DNA of 64,000 bases. It comes from Thermoanaerobaculia bacterium (lineage in GTDB: Bacteria; Acidobacteriota; Thermoanaerobaculia; Multivoradales; UBA5704). Every line of letters begins with the position of its first letter. The stretch's first letter is position 1. Below are positions 10,468 to 59,975 of this stretch, piece by piece. The DNA is taken from assembly GCA_038250865.1 (NCBI GenBank), contig JBBSBW010000025.1, positions 11,809 to 75,808 on the forward strand, written 5' to 3'. The notes beneath the pieces are model-generated. The model had not been told where the DNA came from and did no database searches. It saw only the letters and a list, made by a program, of their open reading frames with translations. A program made the translations under genes and the position numbers.

Positions 10468-10468
10468 G

Positions 10469-13555: not shown

Positions 13556-13702
13556 TACCTCCTTGCTCCTAGGGGCCGAATGGCGCCCCGAGCTTGGCTT
13601 TCGAACTGCCCGCGGATTGCGGGACAATTCCTCCGAATGCCCGACTATGGGAGAACCTCGAAGCGGCGACAACTACAAGAACGTCCTTGCAGTTTTTTCG
13701 GC

Positions 13703-14416: not shown

Positions 14417-14580
14417 ACGCACGCCCTCCCGCAAGTGCCCGCAAAGGACGAGGGAGATGCACGGCGGGCCGGTGCGGGGGCCGGCTATTCGGGGATCAGG
14501 CTAGCCGCGCGAGCTTGATTCTATACTGTCCCGCACAGGTGGGAATCTTGCCGGCGTGATTCAGCATAGGGAGAGATGCA

Positions 14581-15555: not shown

Positions 15556-16020
15556 GACCGGCTATAGGGCGGGCACCCCTATGAGAATCCATTCCAGGCG
15601 CGTCTTTTTGCTCGTCCGCTGAGGGCGGAATAGGAGCAGGTGGTTTCGTTTCTCGGTCGGCTTCGGATCGGGTTAGGGTCGAAAAAACCTCTGCGAGTTG
15701 GAGTGGGGTCTCATGTTATCTGGGAGGCGGCGCCGAATCCGAACGGGGCGGGGGGGCACCTCGCGGAGTCGGTGGGCCTTGGACTTACCTATCCCCCGGG
15801 AGGGCAGTCGGCGAATTAGACGTGGGCACCCGGTCTCTGCTCGGCTCGATACTCGGGGAGCAGAGCGTCTCTTACCCGGCCACCTAATATACCTGCGCTC
15901 TCGACGCTCGCCGGGAACTGAGAATGCCAGATCAATAAGTCTTTTCCGCTCGTCCCCTCGCGCGTACTTCCTTGAGTCTGAGATCTTTTCCCGGCGCTCG
16001 TAGTCACGAGGGGGTCAGTC

Positions 16021-17151: not shown

Positions 17152-17273
17152 GGTTCAGAGTCCTTTCCTCGTTCTAGGTTGCGCCCAAAAAGGAACAGGG
17201 GGCAACCGTGCCAAAGCCTTGGGTCCCGGAAACTTGGCATCCTTGGCACGCTTGGCACGGTTGCCCGAAAACC

Positions 17274-32200: not shown

Positions 32201-32760
32201 GGCGCCCCTTCCCCAAGCTTCCTGGCCGAAGGCGCCAGGTCGTCCCAGGTGACGTACATCGCCCGATAGGGAGCCTTGGGGGTGCCGATCGGCGGCCCGA
32301 ACGTTTGGAACCCAAGATGGCGGTACAGCTTCCCCTGGCGCTCGGTGCCGGAGATTACCGCCAGATCGATCCCCTCGGACCGGCCGTGCTCGATCACGCA
32401 GCCCAGCAGCCCGCCGAACACCGCGCCTTGCCGCCGTTCTGGCTCGACGCAGAGCAGCCGGACTTCGCAAGCCCGGGCGTGAGGCGGCAGGTACGAGTCG
32501 AGATCCGGCACCTTGCCATCGAGCGAAAACGGCCGCTTCGAGGAGATCGCCACCATCCCGACCACCCGCTCTTCCGCCACCGCCACGAACGCGACGCTGT
32601 CGGCCAAGCGGGCATCGATCAGACGGCGGTCGGGCCGTTCGGCATGTTGCGGAATCTCTTCGGCAAAGGTTCGATGGTTGAGCCGATACACCTGATCAAG
32701 CTCCCAAGGCTCGGTCAGGCGCTTCCAGATCACACCGGGCGGGGCGGCGATCAGGCTCAT
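32197..32760 (-). CDS. GNAT-family N-acetyltransferase
   Basis: VAFVAVAEERVVGMVAI...RLLCVEPERRQGAVFGGLLGCVIEHGRSEG is the acetyl-CoA-binding motif region (R/Q-x-x-G-x-G/A). Confidence 0.75.
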   Translation of the reverse strand: MSLIAAPPGVIWKRLTEPWELDQVYRLNHRTFAEEIPQHAERPDRRLIDARLADSVAFVAVAEERVVGMVAISSKRPFSLDGKVPDLDSYLPPHARACEVRLLCVEPERRQGAVFGGLLGCVIEHGRSEGIDLAVISGTERQGKLYRHLGFQTFGPPIGTPKAPYRAMYVTWDDLAPSARKLGEGAP

Positions 32761-32829
32761 GGTCGGTCCCTCAGTATAGCCTGCCGGTTCCTTGTCGGAT
32801 CGACCGATTTGTTCTATAAATGGCCTGGA

Positions 32830-34035
32830 ATGCAGAGTTTCGCCATACCCCAACATCCCGTAGCCACCACCGACAAGCCATTTTCGTCCCTGGGGCTCTC
32901 CCCCTCGATCCTCAAGATTGTCGAGCAGATCGGGTTCCTCTACCCGACGCCGATTCAGTCCGAGGTCATCCCGCTCGCGCTCTCCGGACGCGACCTGATC
33001 GGCCTTGCCGCGACCGGCTCGGGCAAAACCGCCGCGTTCAGCCTGCCGCTCGCCGAAAGGCTCTCGCACGGCAAGGGCTTGCGCGGGTTGATCCTCTCGC
33101 CCACCCGCGAGCTGGCGCTCCAGACCAAGGCGTTCATGGACCTGTTCGGCCAGGACCGGCACCTCGACACCGCCTGCCTGATCGGCGGCGTCCGCATGGG
33201 GCCGCAGTTCGAGGCGCTGAAACGCGGTCCCGACGTGGTGGTCGCAACGCCCGGCCGCCTGCTCGACCACATCGAACGTCGAACCCTCAAGCTCGACGCG
33301 ATCGAAGAGCTGGTGCTCGACGAAGCCGACCACATGCTCGATCTCGGCTTTCTGCCGCAGGTGCAGGAGATCCTCTCCCTGCTGCCGAAGGAGCGTCACA
33401 CGATGCTCTTTTCGGCCACCATGCCGCCGCCGATCGAACGCCTGACCAAGATGTTCCTCTCCGATCCGCTGCGGGTGGACATCCTGCCCGAAGGGGGCGC
33501 CGCGACCGGCCTCACCCACCGGGTCTACATGGTGGCGGACGAAGACAAGAAGGCCTGCCTCTACGCGCTGCTCCACCTGAACCTCGGCCGGACCCTGATC
33601 TTCATCCGCCGGAAGAGCGACGCCGAGTGGCTGACCTCCGTCCTCGAACGCGAAGGCTTCAGCGTCGGAAGAATCCACGCCGACCTGACCCAGGGCCAGC
33701 GGGTCCTCGAACTAAAGAGCTTCCGCGAAGGCAAGACTCGAATCCTGGTCGCCACCGGAGTGGCAGGCCGCGGAATCGACATCCCGGAAATCGAGCACGT
33801 CATCCACTTCGACCTGCCCGAAAAAGTCGACGACTACATCCACCGAGCCGGCCGGACCGGCCGCGGAGCCATGACCGGCCTGGTCTCCTCGATCGTCACC
33901 TGGCAAGACAAGCCGACGATCAAAGAGATCGAGAGCACGATCGGCTTGGAGATCCCCCGCTGCACCCTGCCCGGCGTGGAACCGTGGGTGGAGCTGAAGC
34001 CGAAAACGACGATCCGGCGGCGGATGTTGCGGTAG
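32830..34035 (+). CDS. DEAD-box ATP-dependent RNA helicase
   Basis: Q-motif FSSLGLSPSILK, AATGSGKTAAF, PTRELA, DEAD (VLDEADHMLD), SAT, HRAGRTGR. Confidence 0.9.
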   Translation: MQSFAIPQHPVATTDKPFSSLGLSPSILKIVEQIGFLYPTPIQSEVIPLALSGRDLIGLAATGSGKTAAFSLPLAERLSHGKGLRGLILSPTRELALQTKAFMDLFGQDRHLDTACLIGGVRMGPQFEALKRGPDVVVATPGRLLDHIERRTLKLDAIEELVLDEADHMLDLGFLPQVQEILSLLPKERHTMLFSATMPPPIERLTKMFLSDPLRVDILPEGGAATGLTHRVYMVADEDKKACLYALLHLNLGRTLIFIRRKSDAEWLTSVLEREGFSVGRIHADLTQGQRVLELKSFREGKTRILVATGVAGRGIDIPEIEHVIHFDLPEKVDDYIHRAGRTGRGAMTGLVSSIVTWQDKPTIKEIESTIGLEIPRCTLPGVEPWVELKPKTTIRRRMLR

Positions 34036-35865: not shown

Positions 35866-38319
35866 CTATGTTTCTGAACCGCTTTGAGGCAATCCCGGAA
35901 TGGCATCCCAGCGCACCGGCACCGCCCGGCGGCGGTAGCCCCAGAGGCCATCGAGGCGCTCGGTGCCGGTGGTTTTTTCGAGCCCCTCGGCGACCATGCG
36001 AAAGGCTTCGACCACCCCGGGGACGACCAGGATGTGGCCGTTGTCGTCGCGCGGCATCTGCCAGCGGAAATCTTGCAGTGACCCCAGCTCCAGCATCGCT
36101 TCGCGCAGCTCGACGTAGAGCGCTCCCAGCCGCGCGGTGAGCGCCGCGAGGCCGCAGGTGGCGAAGAACGAATAGGGCTCGATCCGATCGATCGCGGAGA
36201 GAAGCTCTGGTTCGCCCTGGCAGCGGAAGACCTGCTCGGAAAGATCTTCCCGGTCGGTGCGCGCGGTGGTCAAGATCGCTCCAGGGCGGACATCTACGAA
36301 GCCGCCGGTCGCGAGGTGAAAGTCGCGAAAGTCCGCGAGCGTTCCGCCGCTTCCCCGTGCGTGACTCTGCTCAATGTGTTCGGCGATCCGGTCCGTTCCG
36401 TCGAACAGGATTTCAAACGGCGCAACAAAGAATCCCGTGCGCACGAAAGTGACCCCGTCCCGTTCGAAGACGATCGGCGAGCCGAGCGAGGGGATCGCCC
36501 AGACTGCCTCCAGGGCGCGGCGGAAAATTCGGCTCTGCGCCTGGTTTTTCTTGGGAAACAAGCCGCCATGGCGCCCGGGGTTCAAGACCGCGAGATCCTC
36601 TTCCGTGTCCGCGCCGACGAGGATCTGCATCTCACGCGCGAGGTCGGGCAACGGCCAATGGGCGAGATCCTCGAAGGTGAGCGGCTTGGACCGTTCGAGC
36701 AGGAAGCGCTCCGGATCGAAGCGGTCGAGATCGACGTACGGGTCGATCGCGTCGATGTCCACCGTGCGCAACCGATGGAGCAAGATCAGCAACGACAGGG
36801 CGTGCAGCTCCCCCTGGTGCTTGGCCGAGCCGAGATCTTGGAGCGCCATCGGTTCGAGGCCCGAAACCTGCGCCGCGAGCAGCGGCGGCTGATTCAGCAG
36901 GTCGAACACCTGACGCGAGTTGTCGGTCTCGGTGTAATAGCAGACGTTGTTCTCGGAAGCGGGAAACCAGGGGGCGTTGCCGTCGTCGCCCAGCACCCCC
37001 ACCGAGGCGAGGACCAGGGCCAGCTCGGAGGCACTCGCCACCCGCATCGTCCGATAGAGCGCGTCGGCGTTGGCGACGCTGAAGAAGCCGTTTTCGCCGC
37101 TTCGGATCGAATAGGCCGGACGGAGCGGCTCGCCCGCTTCGAAGAGCGCGCGGCCGGCAGAGGGATTTTCGAGCGGGACGGTGAGCGGCGGCGCCACGCG
37201 CACCATGTGGCGCACGGGTTTGCCGTCCGAACCGATTCTTTGGGCCCCGGGGAAGATCTCCTCCGCGGCATCGTGGATCAGGTGCGACGGCCGGGCGTGG
37301 AGCGGAATCGGCTCGCGCAGGCGAACCTCGTCGATGCCGATCGCGGCGGCGGTGATCAGGATCTTCAAGCCGAGCTGGCCGTACTCGTGGGCCAGCTCCT
37401 CGGCGAAGCGCTGCTTGTCGACCAGGAACTCGTCCTTCGCACTGTGGGCGAAGCCGAGCCGGATGCTCCTCTTCTTGCCGCTTTCCACCGAGCTTTCGTC
37501 GTACATCCCGCCGACCGCCGTGGTGTGGGCGATCAACACCTCGTCGGCCAGGCCGCGGACCTCGGCGAGGTCGTCGCGGAAGGACCCGACGAACGCCTCC
37601 TGAAGCTCGTCCCCCGCGTCGGCAGACGCGTCGAGGTGGCTCACCACCTGCCGCAGGTGGTGCTGGTGGTAGGCGATCAGGCTCGGGATCGGGATGCCTA
37701 GGGTGACCGAACGGAAGCGCCCCATCGCTTGGCCCTCGAAATGCTTTTCGAGGTAGCCGCGGAGAAAGGTCGCCACCGGCCGCGCCGCGCCGATCGCTTC
37801 GAGCAGCGTCGCGATCGGTTTTTGGCCGCCGCCGGGCGCCAGCTTTTCGATGAACGAATGGACGAAGGCGCGGCGCTCGTCGATCGCCACTTCCTGGATC
37901 GCGCCGAGACCCGGCAACACGTTCAGCCGGAAACGCTCGAAGGCGACGAACACGCCGCTTGCGGTGAGATACCCGGATCCGACCTTCCTGGGATGCAACG
38001 CTTCGCCGTGGCGCGTCTCGACGTAGCGGAACAGGCGCCGGGTGAAGGCCCGGATGTCGTCCCGGCCCAGGCCGGTCGCGAGCAGGATCGGCACGTCGTC
38101 CGCTCCGGGGGTGGCGACCGTCATCATCTCTTCGTACATCGAGAGCATTTGAAGCAAAGCCGTACCGCCGACCGCCCCGGTACCGCCGATGATCGCGTGA
38201 AGATCCCGCCACCGCTCGCCCGAACGCGCAGCCTGGGCCAGGCGCGGGCCGAGCCGCTGCTTCTTATAGCTTCGAGTCATAGAGGGGGCAACGTACTTCT
38301 CGCAACGGCTGCGCGTCAA
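35866..38319 (-). CDS. Large (817 aa) uncharacterised cytoplasmic protein with N-terminal Rossmann-like GGTGAVGG motif, last gene of the ECF sigma operon
   Basis: LHAIIGGTGAVGGTALLQML... near the N-terminus, then >700 aa with no motif I can name. TTG/ATG start in a 4-nt overlap with the anti-sigma stop. Confidence 0.65.
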   Translation of the reverse strand: MTRSRCEKYVAPSMTRSYKKQRLGPRLAQAARSGERWRDLHAIIGGTGAVGGTALLQMLSMYEEMMTVATPGADDVPILLATGLGRDDIRAFTRRLFRYVETRHGEALHPRKVGSGYLTASGVFVAFERFRLNVLPGLGAIQEVAIDERRAFVHSFIEKLAPGGGQKPIATLLEAIGAARPVATFLRGYLEKHFEGQAMGRFRSVTLGIPIPSLIAYHQHHLRQVVSHLDASADAGDELQEAFVGSFRDDLAEVRGLADEVLIAHTTAVGGMYDESSVESGKKRSIRLGFAHSAKDEFLVDKQRFAEELAHEYGQLGLKILITAAAIGIDEVRLREPIPLHARPSHLIHDAAEEIFPGAQRIGSDGKPVRHMVRVAPPLTVPLENPSAGRALFEAGEPLRPAYSIRSGENGFFSVANADALYRTMRVASASELALVLASVGVLGDDGNAPWFPASENNVCYYTETDNSRQVFDLLNQPPLLAAQVSGLEPMALQDLGSAKHQGELHALSLLILLHRLRTVDIDAIDPYVDLDRFDPERFLLERSKPLTFEDLAHWPLPDLAREMQILVGADTEEDLAVLNPGRHGGLFPKKNQAQSRIFRRALEAVWAIPSLGSPIVFERDGVTFVRTGFFVAPFEILFDGTDRIAEHIEQSHARGSGGTLADFRDFHLATGGFVDVRPGAILTTARTDREDLSEQVFRCQGEPELLSAIDRIEPYSFFATCGLAALTARLGALYVELREAMLELGSLQDFRWQMPRDDNGHILVVPGVVEAFRMVAEGLEKTTGTERLDGLWGYRRRAVPVRWDAIPGLPQSGSET

Positions 38320-39113
38320 GGCGTCAGCCGAAACTTGAGCGGCGGAGAGCCCGCGAGCCGCTTCCCCGCGGCGTCCTTCGCCTCGACCGACCAGGCGTAG
38401 ACCACGGCGGTTTGCAGCTTAGCCGCGGCCTCCGCGGGGAGGGTGAGCGGCGAGGCCTTGGCCGTGCCGCTCCAGATCTCCTCACCGAGCGGATCGACGA
38501 TCCGCACCCGGTAGGTGGCGGCCCCCGCGACCGCTTCCCATTCGAGCGCGGAGGGCGCTTGGGGCTGCTCCCCTTCCGGGCCGCGCAGCAGGACGGTCGA
38601 GCCGCGGTAGGTCTCGGCTCCCTGCGGCGGAGGGGGAAGCGCCGGCAGGTCTCGCTGGCGCAACTCGATCGCCAAGCCGATTCCCAGCGCGAGCAACGCG
38701 GCCAGGGCGAGGCCCCATCCCGCAAAGGATCGGCCCGGCCGGCGCACCGGCAGGCTCTGCGGAACGGCGACCGGCTCGCTCCTCTGCGCCGTACGGCCGA
38801 CCGGGAACGGCACGACGTTCGAACGGACGGGCGGAGCCTGCTGGCCTTGAGCCTCTTCGATCCGCCCGACGACGAAGGCCAGGTCCTCGTCCGAGACGTC
38901 GCCGGCATCGAAGGGGAGATCCCACAGGCCGGCCAGATCGCGCTCCGCCGCGCAGGCCGGGCAGGACGCGGCATGGGCTTCGATCCGCTGCCGTTCCGCC
39001 GCCGGCAGCTTCACCCACTCGGCTTCGACGAACAGCTTGGGCGCCGGGCACCCTTCCTCGAACGCTCCGCGCAGGTGGTCGGCGAACGTTTCTTCCCGAG
39101 GGTCACGGCTCAT
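38316..39113 (-). CDS. Zinc-finger-type anti-sigma factor, single-pass membrane protein
   Basis: N-terminal ...IEAHAASCPACAAERDLAGLW (HxxxCxxC), TM segment GWGLALAALLALGIGLAI, periplasmic C-domain. ATGA overlap with the sigma gene. Confidence 0.7.
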   Translation of the reverse strand: MSRDPREETFADHLRGAFEEGCPAPKLFVEAEWVKLPAAERQRIEAHAASCPACAAERDLAGLWDLPFDAGDVSDEDLAFVVGRIEEAQGQQAPPVRSNVVPFPVGRTAQRSEPVAVPQSLPVRRPGRSFAGWGLALAALLALGIGLAIELRQRDLPALPPPPQGAETYRGSTVLLRGPEGEQPQAPSALEWEAVAGAATYRVRIVDPLGEEIWSGTAKASPLTLPAEAAAKLQTAVVYAWSVEAKDAAGKRLAGSPPLKFRLTP

Positions 39114-39859
39114 GACGCGCTCCTTCCGGCGTTGCCCGCCTCGCGGCGGGCGAAACCCCCTTTGAGCTTGCGCAGGGCGGCGACGATATAGGCCTTGGCA
39201 CCCGATTTATTGGTCAGGCCGAGCACGGCGCCGATCCGGGGGAGGGTCAAACCGTGGACGTAATGCAGGATCAGGACCCGCGACTCCAGCGGCTCGAGGT
39301 CGTTCGTCACCGCCTCGCGCAGCCGAGCGTGAATCTCAGCGGCCTCGAGGTCGTCCGAGATCGCGGGCAGCTCGTCCGCCACCTCGGGCGCGCCCTCCTC
39401 GTCGAGCGACTGGGTCTTCCGGCGCGACTGGTATTCGGCGCGGTTGAGCGCAACGCTGCGGGTCACCTGGTAGAGCCAGGTCGAAAAGCGGCTGTCGCCG
39501 CGGAACGAGTCGAGCCGCGAATGGATGCGCAGGAACACGTCCTGCGCGACGTCGGCGGCCTCTTCGCGATCCCCCGCGATGCGCAGGCACCAGGCGGCGA
39601 CTTTCGGGCGGTAGCGCCGGTAGAGTTCGCCGAAACAGGCGTCGGCCGAACCCGGCTCGCGCCGCGCCCGGGCGATCAGCTCCTCGTCGCTCGCTTGGCC
39701 GAAGCTCAAGGCCGAACTCCGCGACGGCTGGTCGGTTCGGTGGAAGGAAGGGGCATCGGCGCGATCGGAACGGTAGGAGCGGGATCGCCGCCGGGGACGA
39801 CCCGACGGAGCCTGAAGCCTACTCGAAGAACGCGGCGCGGGGGGAGAGAGGGCGAGCAT
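39110..39859 (-). CDS. ECF-family RNA polymerase sigma-70 factor
   Basis: Region 2 ADVAQDVFLRIHSRLDSFRGDSRFSTWLYQVTRSVALNRAEYQ and region 4 LESRVLILHYVHGLTLPRIGAVLGLTNKSGAKAYIVAALRKL. The N-terminal ~60 aa may be an overcall. Confidence 0.85.
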   Translation of the reverse strand: MLALSPPAPRSSSRLQAPSGRPRRRSRSYRSDRADAPSFHRTDQPSRSSALSFGQASDEELIARARREPGSADACFGELYRRYRPKVAAWCLRIAGDREEAADVAQDVFLRIHSRLDSFRGDSRFSTWLYQVTRSVALNRAEYQSRRKTQSLDEEGAPEVADELPAISDDLEAAEIHARLREAVTNDLEPLESRVLILHYVHGLTLPRIGAVLGLTNKSGAKAYIVAALRKLKGGFARREAGNAGRSAS

Positions 39860-44504: not shown

Positions 44505-45383
44505 TTAGGCGCACTGCATCAGGCGCACATAGCCATCCTCGAGCCCAGGCTTTGCCGGCTTGGCATCTGGAAAGCTCGCGGGCCGCGGCCCGACCAGCCG
44601 GTATTGGATGCCGTCGGCGAGATGCAGCATCGAAACGATGGCCAGCCCCGGCTCCGGCTCTTCGAGGCGCTGGCTCGTTGCGGTCCAGACGTGACCTTCG
44701 GCGGCTTCGATCAGCTGCGCGGGACTGCCGCGAAAGAGGATTTTTCCGCGGGCGAGCACCGCGAGATCGCGACAAGTCTGGCCGATGTCTTCGACGATGT
44801 GGGTGGAAAGAATCACCGTCCGGTCCGCCGCCAGATGAACTAAAAGGTTGCGAAAGCGAATGCGCTCCTCCGGATCGAGGCCCGCCGTCGGCTCGTCGAC
44901 GATCAGTATCCGCGGATCGTTCACCAGGGCTTGGGCGATACCCACGCGGCGCTTCATGCCGCCCGAGAAACCTTTGATCTTCCGGTCCGCCGCAGGGCCA
45001 AGAGCCACCATGTCCAGAACCTCTGCGACGCGCCGGGCTCGCTCGCGCGGCTCGTCCAGACCTTTCAGGATCGCCATGTAATCGACGAACTGCGCGGCGG
45101 AAAGCTCAGGGTACATCCCGAGATCCTGCGGCAGGTACCCCAGGATCGATTTGACTCTTCGCTTTCCGCTCTCCGTCCGCAGGTCGTGCCCGGCGACGCG
45201 GAGAGTGCCGCCGCTCGGGTTCACGATCCCCGCGAGGATGCGCATCAGCGTGGTCTTCCCCGCGCCGTTCGGTCCCAGCAGACCGAACATTCCGGAGGGA
45301 ATCTGAAGGTCGATGCCCGACAGGGCGCGGGCGGCTTTCTTACCGCGGCCATAGGTCTTGGTGAGACCGATAATTTCGATCAC
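44505..45383 (-). CDS. ABC transporter ATP-binding protein (ABC-2 exporter type)
   Basis: GTG start. VIEIIGLTKTYG, Walker A GLLGPNGAGKTT, signature FSGGMKRR, Walker B LIVDEPTAGLD, H-loop LSTHIV. The ORF-track N-terminal extension is rejected. Confidence 0.85.
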   Translation of the reverse strand: MIEIIGLTKTYGRGKKAARALSGIDLQIPSGMFGLLGPNGAGKTTLMRILAGIVNPSGGTLRVAGHDLRTESGKRRVKSILGYLPQDLGMYPELSAAQFVDYMAILKGLDEPRERARRVAEVLDMVALGPAADRKIKGFSGGMKRRVGIAQALVNDPRILIVDEPTAGLDPEERIRFRNLLVHLAADRTVILSTHIVEDIGQTCRDLAVLARGKILFRGSPAQLIEAAEGHVWTATSQRLEEPEPGLAIVSMLHLADGIQYRLVGPRPASFPDAKPAKPGLEDGYVRLMQCA

Positions 45384-45397
45384 TGGAGGCTCCCGAT

Positions 45398-46057
45398 CTA
45401 AAGGTAACGTTCTTGACGCCGTAGCAGTACAGAAGAGAGGCCGAGCAGGATCACCGCCCCCGCCAGAAGCACGCTTTGGTTTGCGGCCAGATCCCGATGG
45501 TTGGGGGAAAACACGCCCATGAAAAGGAACAGGTGCCGGGCGTTCGATTCGAACCACCCCTTCATCATCAATTGCACCAGCCAGACCCCGCCGACGCCAA
45601 AGGCGCCCGTCAGGGTCTGCGCCCCGGCTAGAGATCCGGCGCAACCCAAAGCCATCAACGCGAGCGTCGGCACCAGCCAGACGAGCTGAACGCCGAAGAA
45701 CCCGCCGAGCGGAGAAAGGTCGCCACCGAGCGCTCGGGAGAAGAGTTGAAAAGCGAGCGCACAGGCGGTCTCTACGATGAGGATCAGTCCCAAACGCGCG
45801 GCGAGCGTCCGCTCCGCCCGCACGGGAGTCGAGAAGAGCAACTCCAGCGCCGGATCGTCCAGGACGGCGTAGGCCGCGAGAATGCCGCCGATCAACGGCA
45901 CGATGAAGGCGAGATAGGCGCGCGCGATGCCGTAGCGGATCGCAGGGTTAGGGAGGATCGAGAGGATCACGACAAAGAGCGCCAGGAACGCGAGAGGAAA
46001 CCACAACACATCGCGCCGGTAGGTGAGCCAGGAGTACTTCCACGCCGCGCTCTTCAT
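45398..46057 (-). CDS. ABC-2-type transporter permease (membrane protein)
   Basis: MKSAAWKYSWLTYRRDVLWFPLAFLALFVVIL..., six hydrophobic segments. GAGGAA RBS. Confidence 0.6.
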   Translation of the reverse strand: MKSAAWKYSWLTYRRDVLWFPLAFLALFVVILSILPNPAIRYGIARAYLAFIVPLIGGILAAYAVLDDPALELLFSTPVRAERTLAARLGLILIVETACALAFQLFSRALGGDLSPLGGFFGVQLVWLVPTLALMALGCAGSLAGAQTLTGAFGVGGVWLVQLMMKGWFESNARHLFLFMGVFSPNHRDLAANQSVLLAGAVILLGLSSVLLRRQERYL

Positions 46058-46067
46058 CGTCGATTCC

Positions 46068-46862
46068 TCAAGCGCGCTCCGAACGGAATTTGAGCAGGCG
46101 TTCGAGCAGCACCAGGACCCCAAAGATCGCCGAAGCCAAAACCCCCAAGTTCAGCCACGCTTGAACCGGAGTGAAGTGCGCCGCCCCCTGGATCGAGAGA
46201 GATGCGGGAACGCCGAAGAAAGCCTGAAGAGCGAAGATGCCGCTCGGCGTGAGCAGCGTGCCGTTCAAGGTAGGAAAAAGAGCCGGAGGGATGAAGTTGG
46301 CCCAGAACCAATAGCCGACGAACAAAATCTGGTAGATGGGAAGCGGCATCACCATCGGACAGGCGAGCGAAAACGCCACGACGAAGGCGAACGCCGGAAC
46401 GGTGATCGCAAGAAACGCCGCCGGCAAGGCGAGCAGGATCGATACATCCGACTTGCCGAAGGTGGTCATCGCAACTCCGATCGCCATCACCCAAAGGAAC
46501 ACGGGAAAGAGCGACGACGCGAGAGCGCCGAAGTATTTCGCCCCGACGTAGCTCGAACGGGAAAGCGGGGTGCTCTCCTGAAGCTCTCGCACCCCAAGCC
46601 GAACGTCGCGCCTCATCCGATCCGCCGACAGAATCCCGGCCACCACCGGAAAGAACACGTTGACCGCGACCAGGAACCGCCCTGCCACCGACCAGACTTG
46701 GGCGCGCGAAATCACCTCACCTCGGATCATCTCGCCCAGGGGAGGAGGAGAAAACAACAGCACGGTGTAGAAGACGAACAGCAGGCCATAGGCCACCCAC
46801 AGCCCTCTGCGGCGAAGCGACATGCCGATTTCATGACGAAGGGCTCCGTTCCAGCGGGGCAT
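46068..46862 (-). CDS. Polytopic membrane protein, probable second permease subunit
   Basis: 264 aa with multiple TM helices. 10 nt upstream of the next permease. Confidence 0.6.
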   Translation of the reverse strand: MPRWNGALRHEIGMSLRRRGLWVAYGLLFVFYTVLLFSPPPLGEMIRGEVISRAQVWSVAGRFLVAVNVFFPVVAGILSADRMRRDVRLGVRELQESTPLSRSSYVGAKYFGALASSLFPVFLWVMAIGVAMTTFGKSDVSILLALPAAFLAITVPAFAFVVAFSLACPMVMPLPIYQILFVGYWFWANFIPPALFPTLNGTLLTPSGIFALQAFFGVPASLSIQGAAHFTPVQAWLNLGVLASAIFGVLVLLERLLKFRSERA

Positions 46863-46986: not shown

Positions 46987-47367
46987 ATGAACGACCGACC
47001 GAACCCGCTCCTGCTGGGCAGCGCCGTCCTCTACTTCGCGGCGGCCCTGCCTCTCTTGTTCGCCCCCGACGAGCTGCTCAGCTACGCGGGCGCCGCGCCA
47101 TCGGCTCTGGATTCCGTATTGCTCCAAGTGATCGGCAGCGCGATCTTCGGCTTCGCCATGCTCAACTGGATGAACCGTTTTGGACCGATCGGCGGCATTT
47201 ACGGGCGACCGGTCGTCATCGCCAACTTTAGCCACGCCGCGATCGCGGCGCTGTCCCTGGGTCACATCGCGCTGCGCTCGGCTTTTTCGGCTCCGCTGGC
47301 GGTGGTCCTCGCCGCTTATGGCGTGCTCGCCGCGGCATTCGGTTTCAAACTTTTGGCCAGGCGTTGA
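46987..47367 (+). CDS. Small hydrophobic membrane protein
   Basis: 126 aa, four predicted TM helices. Confidence 0.45.
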   Translation: MNDRPNPLLLGSAVLYFAAALPLLFAPDELLSYAGAAPSALDSVLLQVIGSAIFGFAMLNWMNRFGPIGGIYGRPVVIANFSHAAIAALSLGHIALRSAFSAPLAVVLAAYGVLAAAFGFKLLARR

Positions 47368-47395: not shown

Positions 47396-49021
47396 CTAGC
47401 GGTTTCTTTGGAGCAGCCGGATCAGCTCGGAGTCTCGGTGGTAGACGTCCCGACCGAGCCGCAGCATGCCGTCGTCGTCGATCCAGGCGGTCCAGTAGGC
47501 GACGTGGACCTGGACGGTCTCGGGCAGCGGCACCAGGCGCTCCTTGCCGGCATCGATTCCGGCGCGGATCGCTTCCGGAGTCCACTTCGGATCGCCCCGG
47601 AACACCCAGACCGCCAGGTCGAACGGCTTCTCGATCCGAATGCAGCCATGGCTGAAAGCGCGCAGCGTCCGGCCGAACAGCGCAGGAGCCGGCGTGTCGT
47701 GCAGGTAGACGTCAAACCGGTTGGGGAAGACGAATTTGATTCGGCCCAGGGCGTTTCCCGGACCTGGGAGCTGGCGCAGCCGGGTGGCGGAAAGGACCCC
47801 GTACCTCTCGCGCCGCAGGTAGCCAGGGTCTTTCGCCGCCTTGGGGAGGATCTCCTCCACCGCGATCTTTTTTGGCACGTACCACGAGGGATTCAAGAGA
47901 ACGGCGTTCATGGCGCTGGAAAACATCGGCGTCTTGGTGAACGGCTTGCCGACGATGACCCGCATGTCGAGTGCGACGCGGCCCTCTTCGACCGCCTCCA
48001 GGCGAAACGCCGCGATGTTGACCAGGACATGGCGTTTCCCCAGGTCGTGCGGCAGCCAGCGCCAGCGCTCCAGGTTCGCCTCGATCTGCCGGACGTGATC
48101 TTCCGCCCGCTGATTCAGCTCGGCGAGCGTCGCCTTGCCCACCACCCCGTCGTCCGCGAGGCCGTGCCGCTCCTGGAAGCGGCGCACGCCCTCGGCCAAC
48201 ATCTCGTCGAACAGGTCCGGAACCAGGCTCGGCGGAAGAGGGGCAGCGGCATCGGCCTCCGCCGCCTCGGCAAGGCGAGCCCGAAGCGAGGCGACGCGCT
48301 CGCTCCGATCGCCCAGGCGAAGGGTCGGTCCCGGCGGCACGAGTTCGGGATCGCCGGCCAGGGCCAGCTCGCGGTAGCGATGGAGCGCTTCGCGCAGAAG
48401 TCGGTACGCCTTTTGAGGCGGCGTGAGGTCGGCCAGCGCGGCGCGGAGGCGGTTCGCGCCAAGCGCCGCTTCGAGCACCGCCGCCAGGTCGGCCGCATCC
48501 GGCACCAGGGCGCAGTCGGAGTAGATCGATTCTGGATTCACCTTGCCGTGTCGCAAATCCGCGGCGAAGGAGAGAAAGGCGTCGCTCAGCAGGAGATCCA
48601 GATCGGCGCGAGAAAGAGCCTCCGGGTTGACCCGAACCGCCTCGACGAAGGCTCGAAGCTGAACGACTCGATAATCCTCGGACCGGAGTCCCTCGTCCCC
48701 CGCCGCATCGAGCGCCGCGAGCAGATCTTCGACGATCGGCAGGGGGCCGCGATCGTCGCTCCAGGCCGGGCTGAACCCGCGGCGATCGTAGAAGCATGCG
48801 AGGTCCGGGGCGGCGCGAAACCGCCGGCCTTCGATTTCCAATTGGGGCCTAGACCTACCGACGGAGAGGCGAGCCCGCAGGATGATCGGAACCCGCTCCG
48901 AAACCGGCGCTTCCTGGCCTACGAGACGAAGGCTCGACGGCCCGGCGAGTGCAAGTGCGGTAAGAGCGAGGATCTGGACGAGGATCTGAACGTAGCGGGT
49001 CCGAGCGGGCCGAGTCTGCAC
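47396..49021 (-). CDS. L,D-transpeptidase (YkuD/YcbB-like) with peptidoglycan-binding domain
   Basis: FQERHGLADDGVVGKATLAELN (PG_binding_1) and catalytic RAFSHGCIRIEKPFDLAVW (HGCIR motif). Confidence 0.8.
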   Translation of the reverse strand: MQTRPARTRYVQILVQILALTALALAGPSSLRLVGQEAPVSERVPIILRARLSVGRSRPQLEIEGRRFRAAPDLACFYDRRGFSPAWSDDRGPLPIVEDLLAALDAAGDEGLRSEDYRVVQLRAFVEAVRVNPEALSRADLDLLLSDAFLSFAADLRHGKVNPESIYSDCALVPDAADLAAVLEAALGANRLRAALADLTPPQKAYRLLREALHRYRELALAGDPELVPPGPTLRLGDRSERVASLRARLAEAAEADAAAPLPPSLVPDLFDEMLAEGVRRFQERHGLADDGVVGKATLAELNQRAEDHVRQIEANLERWRWLPHDLGKRHVLVNIAAFRLEAVEEGRVALDMRVIVGKPFTKTPMFSSAMNAVLLNPSWYVPKKIAVEEILPKAAKDPGYLRRERYGVLSATRLRQLPGPGNALGRIKFVFPNRFDVYLHDTPAPALFGRTLRAFSHGCIRIEKPFDLAVWVFRGDPKWTPEAIRAGIDAGKERLVPLPETVQVHVAYWTAWIDDDGMLRLGRDVYHRDSELIRLLQRNR

Positions 49022-49090
49022 GGCCTCAAAGTGGCACTTTCCGCATCCGCGCGCTACACCCTGCCGGGTGGGAAGGGAAAACGGTCCTCT

Positions 49091-49549
49091 CTATCGTCCG
49101 CGCAACGCCCGACTAACCACCCGGTCGAGCGCCACGGCGAACGACTGCCGGTCTTTCGGCCCATAGGGGCGCGGCCCGCCGCCCACCATCCCGGCGCTCC
49201 GCAGCTCGGTCATCAGGTCGCGCCCGGCCAGCTTTTCGCCCACGTTGTCCTCGGTGTACTCCAGGCCGCGCGGATCGAGGACGAAAACCCCCTTGTCGAC
49301 CAGCCGCGCGGCGAGCGGAATGTCCGCCGTCACCGCCACATCCCCCGCCTCGGCATGGTCCGCGATGTACTGATCCGCCACGTCGAGCCCTCCCGCCACC
49401 CGGACGGACGAGACGTACGGATGATCCCAAGGAGCGGACAGCGGCTGATTGGCGATCAGGAGCGTCTCGACCTTCAGGCGTCGCGCGAGGCGAAACACCA
49501 CGTCTTTGACGTCGCGAGGCGCGGCGTCGGCATCGATCCAGAGCTTCAA
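49091..49549 (-). CDS. YaiI/YqgE-like UPF0178 (DUF188) family protein
   Basis: TTG start. LKLWIDADAAPRDVKDVVFRLARRLKVETLLIAN... is the UPF0178 N-terminal signature. The in-frame ORF-track extension to 50440 runs through the repeat array and REP elements and is rejected. Confidence 0.65.
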   Translation of the reverse strand: MKLWIDADAAPRDVKDVVFRLARRLKVETLLIANQPLSAPWDHPYVSSVRVAGGLDVADQYIADHAEAGDVAVTADIPLAARLVDKGVFVLDPRGLEYTEDNVGEKLAGRDLMTELRSAGMVGGGPRPYGPKDRQSFAVALDRVVSRALRGR

Positions 49550-49639
49550 GAGGGAAATCCAGAGGGCGACGTGAGATAGCTCATCGGTGAGGGGAGGATA
49601 TCCGGCCCGAGCTGAGGGCTCAATCGGCACGCCCCTTAA

Positions 49640-50120
49640 AGCAGCATGTCGGAACTGGTGTGCGAGGTCCAGGGACCGGTGCTCGGCTTCTCGCACCTGC
49701 TGTGCGGGCGCTCCGGGACCGCTAGGCAGAATGCCGGAACCGGTGGGCGACCTCCCGGCACCGCTTCGCAACATGCCCAAACTGCCGGGCGGCGTCGCGG
49801 CACCGCTTCGCAACTTCCCCGAGGTGCTGGGCGGCATCCCGGCACCGCTTAGCAACGTACCCGAAGTGCTGGGCGGGATCCCAACACCGCTTGGCAGGGT
49901 GCCCGAAGCGGTGTGCGGCCTCACGACACCGGTGCGCAGAGCGCCGGAAGGGGTGGACGGCACCTGGAGACAGGTGCGCCGAGTGCGCGAAGTGGTGTGC
50001 AGCGTCTCGGGACCGGTGCGCGGCATGTCGGAAGGAGTGCGCGGAGCCGGTAGACCGGTTCGCGGAGCCGGGAGAGCGGAGGGCGGATCCCGGAGAGCGG
50101 TGCACGGGATCTGCCCAGCG
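49640..50120. repeat. Degenerate 39-bp tandem repeat array (~12 units), open in three frames
   Basis: Units such as caccgcttcgcaacatgcccaaactgccgggcggcgtcgcgg / caccgcttcgcaacttccccgaggtgctgggcggcatcccgg / caccgcttagcaacgtacccgaagtgctgggcgggatccc... Confidence 0.8.
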
Positions 50121-50227
50121 GTGCGCGGTACCGAGGAAGCACCCCCGGGACCCGACGAACCGCTTACGCGACGCCACCCAGCGGGCTCGCGCACCGAAAC
50201 ATCCCTCGGGAGCCTCTGATCGCCCCC

Positions 50228-50283
50228 AGTTTGGAGTGCGCCGACATGTCGGCGCTTTGGTCGCGGCGACGTGTCGCCGCAGG
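50228..50283. repeat. REP-like palindromic element, copy a (variant)
   Basis: tttggagtgcgccgacatgtcggcgc...ggcgacgtgtcgccgc. Confidence 0.6.
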
Positions 50284-50339
50284 CCGGGCAAGCAGTCCCG
50301 ATTCCAAGGAGTTCTTCTAGGCCAGGTCTTCGTGCTTCG

Positions 50340-50410
50340 GGAGCGCCGACGCGTCGGCGCTCGGAAAGCGGCGACACGTCGCCGCACTCCAAGGGGTTTA
50401 CCCCTCCCCG
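50340..50410. repeat. REP-like palindromic element, copy b
   Basis: gcgccgacgcgtcggcgc (18-bp perfect palindrome) + tcggaaagcggcgacacgtcgccgcactcc + gggg-ttta-cccctcccc. About 90% identical to copy c. Confidence 0.7.
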
Positions 50411-50472
50411 ACCGCCGAGAACAACGCCGGCCGAGGTCAAACCCCTCGACCGGCTCCGCCTAGTGGCCTGGT

Positions 50473-50625
50473 CTAGGTCAATTCGCAGGTGGCGGTGTTG
50501 GTCTTACAGTTGTTCGAACATCCACATGACGCACCCGCAGATGCACCCTGAACGACAATGGCGGTCTCCGTGCTCAAGGCGTACAGCGTCTCGCGTCCCA
50601 ACTTGATCTTCATCGACTTTTTCAT
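50473..50625 (-). CDS. 50-aa Cys/Ser/Thr-rich peptide with double-Gly-like leader (candidate RiPP/bacteriocin precursor)
   Basis: MKKSMKIKLGRETLYALSTETAIVVQGA | SAGASCGCSNNCKTNTATCELT. AAGGAGAGGG RBS 5 nt before the ATG. Leader LSTETAIVVQGA resembles the LSxxELxxIxGG/GA motif. Core has 4 Cys, 4 Ser, 4 Thr. Confidence 0.5.
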   Translation of the reverse strand: MKKSMKIKLGRETLYALSTETAIVVQGASAGASCGCSNNCKTNTATCELT

Positions 50626-50779
50626 CGCCCTCTCCTTTGAAAGATTCCCCACCTCCAGTCGTCGAGGCCCGATCTCCCGACAAGCACGCCTCGCCAGGTA
50701 GGCCAAACTCGCAACTAAAAGCGGATCATCAAAGAAGGTGCGCAGAGGGAGCGAATGCGAGCCGAACATGGGACTCCCC

Positions 50780-50858
50780 AAGTTTGGAGTGCGCCGACGC
50801 GTCGGCGCTCGGAAAGAGGCGACACGTCGCCGCACTCCATAGGGCTTATCCCTCCCCC
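50780..50858. repeat. REP-like palindromic element, copy c
   Basis: tttggagtgcgccgacgcgtcggcgctcggaaagaggcgacacgtcgccgcactccatagggcttatccctcccc. Confidence 0.7.
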
Positions 50859-52411
50859 GCCGCCCGTGCCCGTTCGAGCCGGGTTGCTTCATCGTGACCT
50901 AGGGTGCGCGCGGCCAGCAGGAAGAAACCGAGCGCGATCACGTTCGCGATCAGGGCGAGCGAGAGGGCGACGCGCAGATCTCCGGTCGCCATGCTCAGGC
51001 GGCCGATCGTGTAGGGACCCATGGCGAGGCCGATCAGGGTGTTGACGAGGAGGAACGCGGCCGAGGCCATGGCGCGCATGCGGGGGAGGACGAGATCCTG
51101 GATGGTCGAGGTGCCGGGGCCAAGCCAGAGGGCGGAGGCGGCGTAGAGCGGCAGGGCGAGGCAGAGGGCGATCGTCTTGTTCGGCGTCCAGGCCACGGCG
51201 AGGACGAGAGGAATGACGAGAACCGCGTTCATCATCCCGACATGGAGCCGCCCGCGGGGCGAGGTCCGCCGCAAGCGGTCGGCGAGCACTCCTCCCGAGG
51301 TCACCCCGATCCATCCCCCCAGCGCGGCAGCTCCGCCGACGATCAGCCCCAGTTGGTCGAGCGGCATGCCGTGGACGCGGGCGAAGAACGGCGCGAGCCA
51401 AAAGCCGAAGCCGTAGCCGTTGAAAGAGAGGAACGCAAAGCCGAGGATCGAGTAGATCATCGAGGGGGTGCGGAAGATCAGCGCCGCCGCCGGCCGATCG
51501 CGTAGAGCGAGCGACTGCCCCCACGAGACCGCGGCGTAGAGGCCCAAAGCGAGCGAGGCCCATTGCGCCGGGTTGCCGAAGGCGCTGGTGAGCAGGAACG
51601 CCGCGCCGATCAGCGCACCGGCCGCCCCGATGTTGGCGGCGATCATCGTGCCCGAAGCGCCGAGACGGACGAGGTTCCAGATCGTAAACGGCGGGATCAC
51701 CGAAGAGAGCTCGGCCAGAAACGCGGGGAGCGGCTTCGGCCCGGCGGCGCTTACCAAACCGTCGCTGATGCCCCGTTTCGGTTCGCGCAGCGAGGCCGCC
51801 CAAAGCGCGAGCGGAATCCCGGGAAGTCCGACGAGGAAGAACGCCGCCTGCCACCCATGGAGCCCGAACGGCGCGCCGCCTGCGGCGCCCCCTGGGAACG
51901 CCAGATCCCAGCGATTGACCACCAAGCCGCCGAGGAACAGACCGAGGCCTGAACCGATGTAGATGCCGCTCGAATAGATCGCGAGCACGGTCGCCCGTCG
52001 GGCGCGGGGGAAGTAGTCCGAGAGAAGAGAGTAAGCGGCCGGGGAGGCGCTCGCCTCGCCGACCCCGACGCCGACTCGTGCGAGTGCGAGCTGAGCAAAG
52101 GAGCGGGCCATTCCCGAAACCGCGGTCATGACGCTCCAAAAGCCGAGGCCGATCGAGATCAGCTTGCGGCGATCCCAGACGTCCGCCAGGCGCCCGAGCG
52201 GCAGGCCGAACAGGGCGTAGAACACGGCGAACGCGGTGCCGTAGAGATAGCCGAGCTGCGCATCCGTGGCGCCCAGATCGGCTTTGATCCGTTCGGCCAG
52301 GATCGACAGGATCTGGCGATCGAGGAAATTGAAGACGTAGACCAGCACCAGCACCGCGAGCACGTAGCGCGCGTACGGCCCGCCGATTTCGTCTCTCTTG
52401 TCTTCCGCCAT
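50846..52411 (-). CDS. MFS transporter
   Basis: 521 aa, 12-14 TM. MAEDKRDEIGGPYARYVLAVLVLVYVFNFLDRQILSILAER (MFS motif region). GAGGAGAGGGAG RBS. Confidence 0.85.
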   Translation of the reverse strand: MAEDKRDEIGGPYARYVLAVLVLVYVFNFLDRQILSILAERIKADLGATDAQLGYLYGTAFAVFYALFGLPLGRLADVWDRRKLISIGLGFWSVMTAVSGMARSFAQLALARVGVGVGEASASPAAYSLLSDYFPRARRATVLAIYSSGIYIGSGLGLFLGGLVVNRWDLAFPGGAAGGAPFGLHGWQAAFFLVGLPGIPLALWAASLREPKRGISDGLVSAAGPKPLPAFLAELSSVIPPFTIWNLVRLGASGTMIAANIGAAGALIGAAFLLTSAFGNPAQWASLALGLYAAVSWGQSLALRDRPAAALIFRTPSMIYSILGFAFLSFNGYGFGFWLAPFFARVHGMPLDQLGLIVGGAAALGGWIGVTSGGVLADRLRRTSPRGRLHVGMMNAVLVIPLVLAVAWTPNKTIALCLALPLYAASALWLGPGTSTIQDLVLPRMRAMASAAFLLVNTLIGLAMGPYTIGRLSMATGDLRVALSLALIANVIALGFFLLAARTLGHDEATRLERARAAGEG

Positions 52412-59921: not shown

Positions 59922-59975
59922 CGCACTGCGGCGTAATCTCTTTGGAGTGCGGCGACGCGTCGCCGCTTTCCGAGG
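59922..59975. repeat. REP-like palindromic element, copy d (partial/variant)
   Basis: tttggagtgcggcgacgcgtcgccgctttccgagg shares the ggagtgcg / cgacgcgtcg / ttccgag modules with copies a-c. Confidence 0.55.

What the first reader, a model, noticed from the sequence alone, without database searches (positions are those of the whole stretch)
50473..50625. Orphan 50-aa Cys/Ser/Thr-rich peptide gene with a double-Gly-type leader, bracketed by two near-identical REP-like elements
MKKSMKIKLGRETLYALSTETAIVVQGA-SAGASCGCSNNCKTNTATCELT. Strong RBS (AAGGAGAGGG, 5-nt spacing). Leader with L-S at -12/-11, E at -9, hydrophobic residues at -6 to -4, and GA at -2/-1. The 22-aa core has 4 Cys, 4 Ser, 4 Thr, 3 Asn, which is the composition typical of lanthipeptide/thioether RiPP cores or class II bacteriocins. 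No lanthionine synthetase, radical SAM enzyme or C39-peptidase ABC transporter is present within the window. The gene is precisely flanked by ~90% identical direct copies of a 75-bp palindromic element (50340..50410 and 50780..50858) and sits next to an MFS exporter.
Basis: partly seen in the sequence, partly recalled or inferred. Interest (0 to 1): 0.6.

Follow-up and report, generated by a model that had tools for sequence, protein, structure and literature searches.

The report
Orphan leader-peptide gene in strain-specific insert
A 50-codon gene in an uncultured soil Acidobacteriota genome (class Thermoanaerobaculia) most likely encodes the precursor of a small secreted, cysteine-bridged peptide, but it is a strain-specific insert with no processing enzymes nearby, so it is a modest new example of a known kind.

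Summary
The ORF is real: window 50473-50625 (-), 50 aa, with AAGGAG 6 nt before the ATG and a hairpin 18 nt after the stop.

It is probably a gene. An exhaustive HMMER search of 1.84 billion proteins found one relative, P0002 (48 aa, E 9e-4). It shares both the leader (KLxLxRETLxxL...VQG[GA]) and the core (C-x-SNNCKT-x-T-x-TCE). P0002's leader scores just under the cut-offs of NF038153 (class I lanthipeptide leader) and TIGR04149. All three conserved Cys have Ser/Thr at -3, which suggests thioether rings.

A second peptide with the same leader type ending in GA, and a 10-Cys core, lies in a related genome.

The window holds no RiPP enzyme or C39 transporter.

The neighbouring MFS gene belongs to an operon conserved in seven related genomes, none of which has the peptide downstream of it. 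There they carry unrelated inserts; in the two that keep the palindromes, the insert is bracketed by duplicated [MFS 3' end + palindrome] units.

There are three "REP" copies, not two, and the 81-nt repeat includes the last MFS codons.

Verdict: an orphan GG/GA-leader precursor, likely a lanthipeptide-type RiPP matured in trans, sitting in an insertion hotspot. New member of a known kind; modest interest. An independent assembly breaks at the repeat, so placement is unconfirmed.

The parts
50473..50625 (-). 50-codon precursor-peptide ORF including the TAG stop. The leader (aa 1-28) is 50542-50625. The predicted 22-aa core SAGASCGCSNNCKTNTATCELT is 50476-50541.
   Evidence: One homolog, P0002, at E 9e-4 in 1.84e9 proteins. 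NCBI's annotation called this ORF.
50632..50637 (-). Shine-Dalgarno AAGGAG, 6 nt upstream of the ATG.
   Evidence: The same AAAGGAGAG plus 6-nt arrangement precedes the related peptide in L030.
50426..50454 (-). G+C-rich hairpin (11 pairs) followed by GTTGTTCTCG, 18 nt after the stop codon. It looks like a terminator. It lies inside the degenerate copy of the MFS 3' end.
   Evidence: one site found; the shuffles also give about one, so this is weak evidence on its own.
50417..50783 (-). Strain-specific insert (cassette), 367 bp, 58% GC. It carries only the peptide gene and its 158-nt upstream region.
   Evidence: GC dip. Absent from seven related genomes at the homologous site.
50784..50864 (.). 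Repeat copy 3: the last MFS codons and stop, plus a long palindrome TTGGAGTGC...GCACTCCAA. Its outer flank matches that of copy 1, so it looks like a collapsed copy-2/copy-1 pair.
   Evidence: (RNA fold -47.5 kcal/mol, z -3.1).
50336..50416 (.). Repeat copy 2: a degenerate MFS 3' end (GGCGGTCGGGGAGGGGTAA) plus a double hairpin. Its distal flank AAGCACGAAGACCTGG matches the element that directly follows the MFS gene in relatives L040 and L041, so this is the ancestral copy.
50223..50290 (.). Repeat copy 1, the inverted partner of copy 2. The same pair is present in L040 and L041.
50846..52411 (-). MFS transporter, the last gene of a conserved AMP-ligase/hydrolase/KASIII/MFS operon. It is a neighbour by insertion, not a dedicated exporter.
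49713..50101 (.). Array of 42-bp tandem repeats between the palindromes and yaiI. It forms the far boundary of the variable site. It is conserved in relatives and breaks their assemblies.

Best explanation
The ORF is a genuine gene for a ribosomal precursor peptide.

The proposed leader is 28 aa and of the LxLx(K/R)x5L...G-G/A type. This type is used by Bacteroidetes-type class I lanthipeptides and by TIGR04149 radical-SAM peptides. The inferred mechanism is that a C39 (double-glycine) peptidase/ABC exporter removes the leader after Gly27-Ala28.

The core is 22 aa. Its three conserved Cys (C36, C40, C47) each pair with a Ser/Thr three residues upstream (S33, S37, T44). The inference is that these form three small (methyl)lanthionine-type thioether rings.

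The maturation and export enzymes are not in this 64-kb window and would have to act in trans, as for prochlorosin-type scattered precursors.

The gene reached its present place as a 367-bp, lower-GC, strain-specific insert. The site is a recombination hotspot directly behind a conserved MFS gene. The insert is bracketed by a duplication of the MFS 3' end plus a palindromic element.

Shown: the ORF, the RBS, the homolog with conserved leader and core, the leader-type match of the homolog, the absence of enzymes in the window, the absence of the gene in relatives, and the duplicated flanks. Inferred: cleavage site, thioether chemistry, maturation in trans, and secretion.
For: - ORF, RBS and stop.
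- Exhaustive HMMER search: one relative, P0002, at E 9e-4, 53-57% identical over the full length. Conserved positions are K2 K3 K6 L9 R11 E12 T13 L14 L17 V25 Q26 G27 in the leader and C36 S37 N38 N39 C40 K41 T42 T44 T46 C47 E48 in the core.
- JGI names P0002 'natural product precursor'. Its leader hits NF038153 lant_leader_L1a (E 2.3e-4) and TIGR04149 (E 2.9e-4).
- Walker et al. 2020 describe the LxLxKx5L leader ending in GG, with a C39 protease, for Bacteroidetes class I LanAs (PMC7268733). All three peptides here fit it with R in place of K.
- A third peptide in a related Thermoanaerobaculia genome (L030 685-893, minus strand) has KLTLARETL...VHGA, a 10-Cys core and the same RBS layout.
- The leader regex hits only these ORFs in the window and in the Thermoanaerobaculia ABC-operon loci. 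The MFS-homolog loci gave a single chance hit.
- S/T at -3 of every conserved Cys in both homologs. P0002 has an odd Cys count (3), which disfavours a purely disulfide fold.
- Thermoanaerobaculia do run lanthipeptide clusters with C39 peptidases (PMC13083261).
- Insert status: GC 58% against 68% in the flanks. Seven relatives with 77-96% identical MFS genes lack the peptide. L040 and L041 show other inserts between duplicated [MFS 3' end + palindrome] units.
Against: - Only one homolog exists among 1.84e9 representatives, at a borderline E-value.
- Nothing was found in the genome, metagenome, viral or plasmid DNA scans.
- The window peptide itself matches no leader HMM even at E<=10.
- It ends in GA rather than GG, and its acidic residue is at -9 rather than -8.
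- Core GC3 is only 0.64.
- No LanB/C/M/KC, rSAM, YcaO or C39 transporter is present in 64 kb.
- The gene is not conserved in the closest genomes.
- The independent Logan assembly of the same sample stops 66 nt after the MFS stop, inside the repeat. The junctions of the insert therefore rest on one MAG assembly.
- No expression data are available.
Confidence: 0.55

Rival explanations
1. An unmodified, class II-bacteriocin-like or signalling peptide. The same GG/GA leader is cut by a C39 exporter, but the core is only oxidised to disulfides (two in the window peptide), with no dedicated modifying enzyme.
For: - There is no modifying enzyme in the window.
- The window core has four Cys, an even number.
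- P0002 also gives a weak hit to the class IIb bacteriocin leader TIGR03949 (E 0.17).
- The leader type says nothing about modification.
Against: - The homolog has three Cys, so only three are conserved.
- Each conserved Cys has a conserved Ser/Thr at -3.
- P0002's best leader matches are RiPP leader models.
Confidence: 0.17
2. A non-functional relic or chance ORF. A fragment of foreign DNA was dropped into a recombination hotspot, and the ORF is no longer, or was never, expressed or matured in this host.
For: - The ORF is absent from all seven relatives at the site.
- The same hotspot holds a decayed gene remnant in L040.
- Composition is atypical and the GC3 signal is weak.
- No promoter-like site was found.
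- No machinery is present in the window.
Against: - The reading frame is intact, with a good RBS identical in layout to that of the L030 peptide.
- A full-length homolog conserves both leader and core.
- NCBI's annotation called the gene.
Confidence: 0.2
3. An assembly chimera. The peptide segment belongs to another locus or another population genome that carries the same palindrome, and the assembler joined it here through the 81-nt repeat.
For: - The Logan contig of the same run ends inside repeat copy 3.
- Contigs of the nearest relative end in the adjacent tandem repeat.
- The source is a MAG.
Against: - Relatives L040 and L041 independently show the same architecture: an insert between duplicated units.
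- The flanks of copies 2 and 3 differ in the way expected for a real duplication.
Confidence: 0.08

Closest known systems
Bacteroidetes-type class I lanthipeptide precursors (pinensin family; leader model NF038153 lant_leader_L1a)
   Same: The LxLx(K/R)x5L leader motif ending in G-G/A. A Ser/Thr/Cys-rich short core. The homolog P0002 scores 21.3 bits against NF038153.
   Different: The source is Acidobacteriota, not Bacteroidota. The window peptide does not hit the model. No LanB, LanC or C39-LanT is nearby. The core motif SNNCKTxTxTCE was found in only one other protein (P0002), and no Pfam or NCBIfam model matches it.
TIGR04149 GG-leader radical-SAM-modified peptides
   Same: The same broad leader type; P0002 scores 20.7 bits. 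JGI names P0002 'natural product precursor'.
   Different: The score is below the cut-off of 25. No radical SAM/SPASM gene is present in the window.
Prochlorosins (ProcA/ProcM) and other scattered-precursor systems
   Same: Precursor genes lie far from the synthetase. The cleavage motif is GG or GA. The leader is conserved while the cores are hypervariable: three peptides here have cores of 20, 22 and 44 aa.
   Different: The leader family is different (Nif11/NHLP for prochlorosins). A trans-acting enzyme is only inferred here.
ThaA/TheA lanthipeptide-thiazole precursors of Thermoanaerobaculia (PMC13083261)
   Same: The same bacterial class. Cys-rich cores with a Gly-Cys motif (P0002 has TGGC; the window peptide has CGC). 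A C39 peptidase is present in the tha cluster.
   Different: ThaA has a mersacidin-type leader (MKKQQVIRAWKDEEY...), unrelated to this one. No LanM or GMC oxidoreductase is present here.
Integrative elements that insert into the 3' end of a gene and duplicate it; REP/BIME clusters
   Same: The insert is bracketed by diverged direct copies of the target gene's 3' end plus a palindrome. The same site is used repeatedly in related genomes.
   Different: No integrase lies in or beside the insert. The insert is only 367 bp. The palindrome is low-copy (3.5 copies in 64 kb, 3 of them here).

Membership tests
Double-glycine (GG/GA/GS) leader peptides, substrates of C39 peptidase-ABC exporters | Gly at -2 and Gly/Ala/Ser at -1, about 15-30 aa from the N-terminus | tested here: met
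   G27-A28 in the window peptide, G27-G28 in P0002, G23-A24 in the L030 peptide.
Double-glycine (GG/GA/GS) leader peptides, substrates of C39 peptidase-ABC exporters | Hydrophobic residues at -4, -7, -12 and -15, and an acidic residue at -8 | tested here: inconclusive
   Window peptide: V-4, A-7, L-12, L-15, but E at -9 and T at -8. P0002 fits fully (V-4, L-7, D-8, L-12, L-15).
Double-glycine (GG/GA/GS) leader peptides, substrates of C39 peptidase-ABC exporters | A cognate C39-peptidase ABC transporter encoded in the genome | not testable with these tools
   None in the 64-kb window. The only ABC system is an ABC-2 operon without C39. The rest of the 96.7-kb contig and of the genome could not be reached.
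Class I lanthipeptide precursors with L1a leader (NF038153) | Score at or above the curated cut-off (22 bits) against NF038153 | tested here: not met
   The window peptide gives no hit at E<=10. The homolog P0002 scores 21.3 bits, just below the cut-off.
Class I lanthipeptide precursors with L1a leader (NF038153) | LxLxKx5L leader motif (Walker et al. 2020) | tested here: met
   I7-K-L9-G-R11-ETLYA-L17, with I for L and R for K. P0002 has L-E-L-N-R-ETLRN-L and the L030 peptide has L-T-L-A-R-ETLMP-L.
Lanthipeptides (any class) | The core contains Cys plus Ser/Thr placed so that thioether rings can form | tested here: met
   S33xxC36, S37xxC40 and T44xxC47 are conserved as T30xxC33, S35xxC38 and T42xxC45 in P0002. 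This is compatible with lanthipeptides but not specific to them.
Lanthipeptides (any class) | A dehydratase/cyclase (LanB+LanC, LanM, LanKC or LanL) encoded with or near the precursor | tested here: not met
   No such domain in any scanned ORF of the window, nor in the 6.7-kb contig of P0002. Genome-wide presence is not testable here.
TIGR04149 rSAM-modified GG peptides | Score at or above 25 bits, and an adjacent radical SAM/SPASM maturase | tested here: not met
   The window peptide gives no hit; P0002 scores 20.7 bits. No radical SAM gene is present in the window.
REP (repetitive extragenic palindrome) elements | A short imperfect palindrome, extragenic, present in many dispersed copies per genome | tested here: inconclusive
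   It is palindromic and mostly extragenic. However, there are only 3.5 copies in 64 kb, 3 of them at one locus. In relatives it is found only at this same locus. The genome-wide copy number could not be measured.

The most novel reading that the evidence does not exclude
The palindrome pair behind the MFS gene is an attachment-like site. Very small cassettes, each carrying one gene, are swapped in and out of it, with duplication of the gene's 3' end. Precursor-peptide genes of this leader family (here, and as a roughly 300-bp extra segment in L030) travel as such mini-cassettes. They plug new cores into a resident trans-acting maturation and export system. This would be a mobile 'core library' mechanism for RiPP diversification in Thermoanaerobaculia.
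Probability: 0.1. Interest if true: 0.65.

Novelty: new member of a known kind. Interest (0 to 1): 0.3.

Why it matters
If it is expressed and matured, this peptide defines a very rare core family (SNNCKTxTxTCE; two members among billions of predicted proteins). The host class, Thermoanaerobaculia, is uncultured and has only just been shown to carry unusual RiPP chemistry. The peptide would also extend the Bacteroidetes-type LxLxKx5L/GG leader to Acidobacteriota.

The locus is also a clear example of one chromosomal site behind a conserved operon receiving different small inserts in closely related genomes, bracketed in the two relatives that keep the palindromes by a duplicated gene end plus palindrome. 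This bears on how orphan precursor genes spread.

Neither point is surprising to specialists on present evidence.

Tried and rejected
- **MFS as dedicated exporter: rejected.** The MFS closes an AMP-ligase/hydrolase/KASIII/MFS operon kept in seven relatives that lack the peptide.
- **ABC-2 operon (44505-46862) as LanFEG-like immunity: rejected.** The idea arose because the P0002 contig has the same permease(266)-219 aa-ATPase operon 1 kb from its peptide. But the 219-aa subunit is 68-94% identical across more than 100 Thermoanaerobaculia contigs regardless of any peptide. The MutG match is only 16.6 bits against a cut-off of 117. The shared neighbourhood reflects shared ancestry.
- **Sec or lipoprotein signal peptide: rejected.** There is no hydrophobic h-region; R, E and E interrupt it.
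- **Relation to ThaA/TheA: rejected.** The leader is unrelated.
- **Integron attC array: rejected.** Copies 1 and 2 are 45 nt apart with no cassette between them, and the copies are near-identical rather than alike only in structure.
- **Known RNA family in 49000-51500:** none at E<=1.
- **Searches for more family members all came back empty:**
  - word-indexed protein search;
  - genome, metagenome and viral pattern scans;
  - a specific NNCKTxTxTC DNA pattern in metagenomes, which gave 25 hits, all chance;
  - plasmids.
- **Reaching the rest of the source contig failed**. L001 adds only 1.4 kb.
- **The 139-aa upstream extension of the ORF and the overlapping plus-strand 111-aa ORF** show no coding signal.

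Full report
**What is in the sequence**

The minus strand of window 50473-50625 carries an intact 50-codon ORF, MKKSMKIKLGRETLYALSTETAIVVQGASAGASCGCSNNCKTNTATCELT.
- AAGGAG lies at 50632-50637, 6 nt before the ATG.
- A G+C-rich 11-pair hairpin followed by a T-rich stretch lies 18 nt after the stop.
- The longer 139-aa reading of the same frame and the overlapping plus-strand ORF show no coding signal.
- The ORF is 54% G+C in a 65% G+C window. GC3 is 0.725, against 0.80-0.85 in neighbouring genes. It is higher in the leader (0.79) than in the core (0.64).
- Neither Pfam nor NCBIfam recognises the peptide, even at E<=10.

**Is it a gene?**

The word-indexed search of 5.8 billion proteins returned only the peptide itself, called by NCBI on a 96,708-bp contig. 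The exhaustive HMMER scan of 1.84 billion representatives found exactly one relative, P0002. It is 48 aa, VKKLKKLELNRETLRNLTSQDLKIVQGGLTGGCFSNNCKTTTNTCEEW, at E 9e-4 for the whole library.

The two align end to end at 53% identity. They have one conserved block in the leader (KK..K..L.RETL..L.......VQG) and another in the core (GC.SNNCKT.T.TCE). This is the pattern expected of a leader-plus-core precursor, not of a chance ORF.

JGI names P0002 'natural product precursor'. Its leader matches NF038153 (class I lanthipeptide leader L1a; 21.3 bits, cut-off 22; E 2.3e-4) and TIGR04149 (GG-leader rSAM-modified RiPP; 20.7 bits, cut-off 25; E 2.9e-4).

Walker et al. 2020 report that many Bacteroidetes class I LanAs carry an LxLxKx5L leader ending in Gly-Gly, with a C39 protease in the cluster (PMC7268733). 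The window peptide (I-K-L-G-R-ETLYA-L ... G-A) and P0002 (L-E-L-N-R-ETLRN-L ... G-G) both fit, with Arg in place of Lys.

While checking relatives I found a third peptide of this leader type. It is in a related Thermoanaerobaculia genome (L030/L031 685-893, minus strand): MNKSKRKLTLARETLMPLHVVHGA followed by a 44-aa core with 10 Cys. It has the same AAAGGAGAG plus 6-nt ribosome-binding layout, and its stop overlaps the start of a 128-aa membrane protein gene. A regular expression for the leader core hits only these ORFs in six-frame translations of the window and of the Thermoanaerobaculia ABC-operon loci. Across the 43 MFS-homolog loci it gave a single chance hit.

**Chemistry suggested by the core**

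Only three Cys are conserved between the two homologs. In both peptides each has Ser or Thr three residues upstream:
- window peptide: S33/C36, S37/C40, T44/C47;
- P0002: T30/C33, S35/C38, T42/C45.

An odd number of Cys in P0002, together with this regular (S/T)xxC spacing, favours three small thioether rings over disulfides. This is inference only.

**Surroundings**

The organism is an uncultured member of the Thermoanaerobaculia (Acidobacteriota). The nearest public genome is GCA_040005235.1, with an ABC-2 subunit 94% identical and an MFS 96% identical.

About 50 of the larger ORFs of the window were scanned with Pfam. No lanthionine synthetase, radical SAM, YcaO or C39-ABC gene is present.

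The ABC-2 operon at 44505-46862 looked interesting at first, because the P0002 contig has the same three-gene operon 1 kb from its peptide. However, that operon is conserved at 68-94% identity throughout the class irrespective of any peptide. Its best lantibiotic-immunity match is far below the cut-off. The shared neighbourhood therefore indicates only that P0002 also comes from this lineage.

The MFS gene next to the peptide is the last gene of an AMP-ligase/hydrolase/KASIII/MFS operon. That operon is present in all seven related genomes retrieved (MFS 77-96% identical). None of them carries the peptide.

**The repeats and the insert**

Three points change the picture.
- There is a third, inverted copy at 50223-50290 and a half copy at 59941-59975.
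- The 81-nt repeat includes the last codons and the stop of the MFS gene. Copy 2 therefore carries a degenerate MFS 3' end.
- Copy 2 and its flank (AAGCACGAAGACCTGG) match the element that directly follows the MFS stop in relatives L040 and L041. Copy 3, now next to the MFS gene, has the outer flank of copy 1 and looks like a collapsed copy-2/copy-1 pair.

The 367 bp between copies 3 and 2 (58% G+C) contain nothing but the peptide gene and its upstream region.

The same site holds different DNA in each relative:
- L041 has a roughly 580-bp lower-GC insert with a different small membrane-protein ORF. It lies between the MFS gene plus palindrome and a diverged second copy of about 110 nt of the MFS 3' end plus palindrome.
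- L038, the closest genome, has a 1022-aa hydrolase-NTPase-TPR gene and no palindromes.
- L040 has an internally deleted remnant of that gene, lying between two palindrome pairs each preceded by a short MFS-3'-end-like stretch.
- L039, L042 and L043 hold yet other genes.

The site is thus a recurrent insertion or recombination hotspot. It is bounded on the far side by a 42-bp tandem-repeat array that is conserved among relatives. The peptide gene is one of its strain-specific cargoes.

The palindrome occurs only at this locus in the related DNA I could inspect. 'REP' in the sense of a high-copy dispersed element is therefore not shown.

**Caveat on assembly**

An independent Logan assembly of the same sequencing run (SRR19962010) carries the identical MFS operon but ends 66 nt after the MFS stop, inside repeat copy 3. 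Contigs of the nearest relative end inside the tandem repeat. The junctions of the insert therefore rest on one MAG assembly. The parallel architecture in L040 and L041 argues that such inserts are real.

**Interpretation**

The best-supported reading (about 0.55) is a genuine GG/GA-leader precursor peptide. It is probably a lanthipeptide-type RiPP whose enzymes and C39 exporter lie elsewhere in the genome, and it was acquired as a small insert.

Thermoanaerobaculia are known to encode lanthipeptide clusters with C39 peptidases. However, the characterised ThaA/TheA precursors use an unrelated mersacidin-type leader (PMC13083261).

The rivals are:
- an unmodified, disulfide-bridged, bacteriocin-like peptide using the same export route (about 0.17);
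- an unexpressed relic in a hotspot (about 0.2);
- a mis-joined contig (about 0.08).

**Searches that found nothing**

- Pattern scans of genome, metagenome and viral contigs.
- A specific NNCKTxTxTC DNA pattern in metagenomes, which gave 25 chance hits only.
- Plasmids.
- Rfam over 49000-51500.
- Attempts to reach the remainder of the source contig.

**Verdict**

The gene is an orphan, very rare, not conserved among close relatives, and without any demonstrated maturation system. It is a new member of a known kind, of modest interest. The insertion hotspot with its duplicated gene end plus palindrome is the more unusual by-product.

Noticed in passing
window 49713-50101: An array of 42-bp tandem repeats (21-bp sub-period) with at least 9 copies at 70-80% matches, between yaiI and the palindromes. 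All six frames are open and there is no codon-position signal. It is conserved at 73-85% in related genomes, and three contigs of the nearest relative end inside it. L040 has a different unit of about 30 bp at the same place.
   Followed up: partly
L038 7625-10693 (-); L040 7760-8232 (-): At the site homologous to the peptide insert, the closest relative carries a 1022-aa alpha/beta-hydrolase + NTPase + TPR (STAND-like, possibly defence) gene. L040 keeps an internally deleted remnant that fuses the gene's N- and C-termini.
   Followed up: partly
L041 7662-8221 and 8222-8330: A lower-GC insert of about 580 bp carrying a small membrane-protein ORF (7755-8261, minus strand). It is followed by a diverged duplicate of about 110 nt of the MFS 3' end plus palindrome. 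This is the same bracket architecture as around the peptide in the window.
   Followed up: partly
L030/L031 685-893 (-): An uncalled 68-aa peptide, MNKSKRKLTLARETLMPLHVVHGA followed by a 10-Cys core rich in T-C/S-C pairs. It is translationally coupled (TGATG) to a 128-aa four-helix membrane protein. In relative L033 the gap between the homologous membrane gene and the PQQ-repeat gene is only 96 nt, so this peptide is also an extra segment of about 300 bp.
   Followed up: partly
window 46987-47367 (+): A 126-aa membrane protein with no Pfam or NCBIfam match. It is homologous to the protein coupled to the L030 peptide and has no peptide gene upstream here. Whether this protein family has any link to these peptides, for example in immunity, is unknown.
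   Followed up: no
window 59941-59975: A half copy of the palindromic element (one intact hairpin, the second decayed) in the gap between tetR and a 335-aa ORF with no family match. It is also present in the Logan contig L001.
   Followed up: partly
window 10000-17200: A tyrosine integrase (16021-17151), an AAA_25 protein (12171-13280) and several ORFs with no family match. This may be an integrated mobile element about 34 kb from the finding.
   Followed up: no
window 35866-39859 (-): An ECF sigma factor, a zf-HC2 anti-sigma factor and an 817-aa protein with no Pfam or NCBIfam match. The trio is conserved in relatives (L027, L035).
   Followed up: no
P0002 contig (JGI 3300071358, 6668 bp), genes at 4544-5371: The only homolog of the peptide is followed 130 nt downstream, on the same strand, by a 182-aa protein with no Pfam hit. 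Its DNA and sequence could not be retrieved. It is a candidate partner protein.
   Followed up: no
window 32197-33678 (-): An ORF with a FeeM-like N-acyl amino acid synthase/GNAT domain lies next to a class-V aminotransferase-like ORF. This may be a small lipid-amide biosynthesis locus, unrelated to the finding.
   Followed up: no
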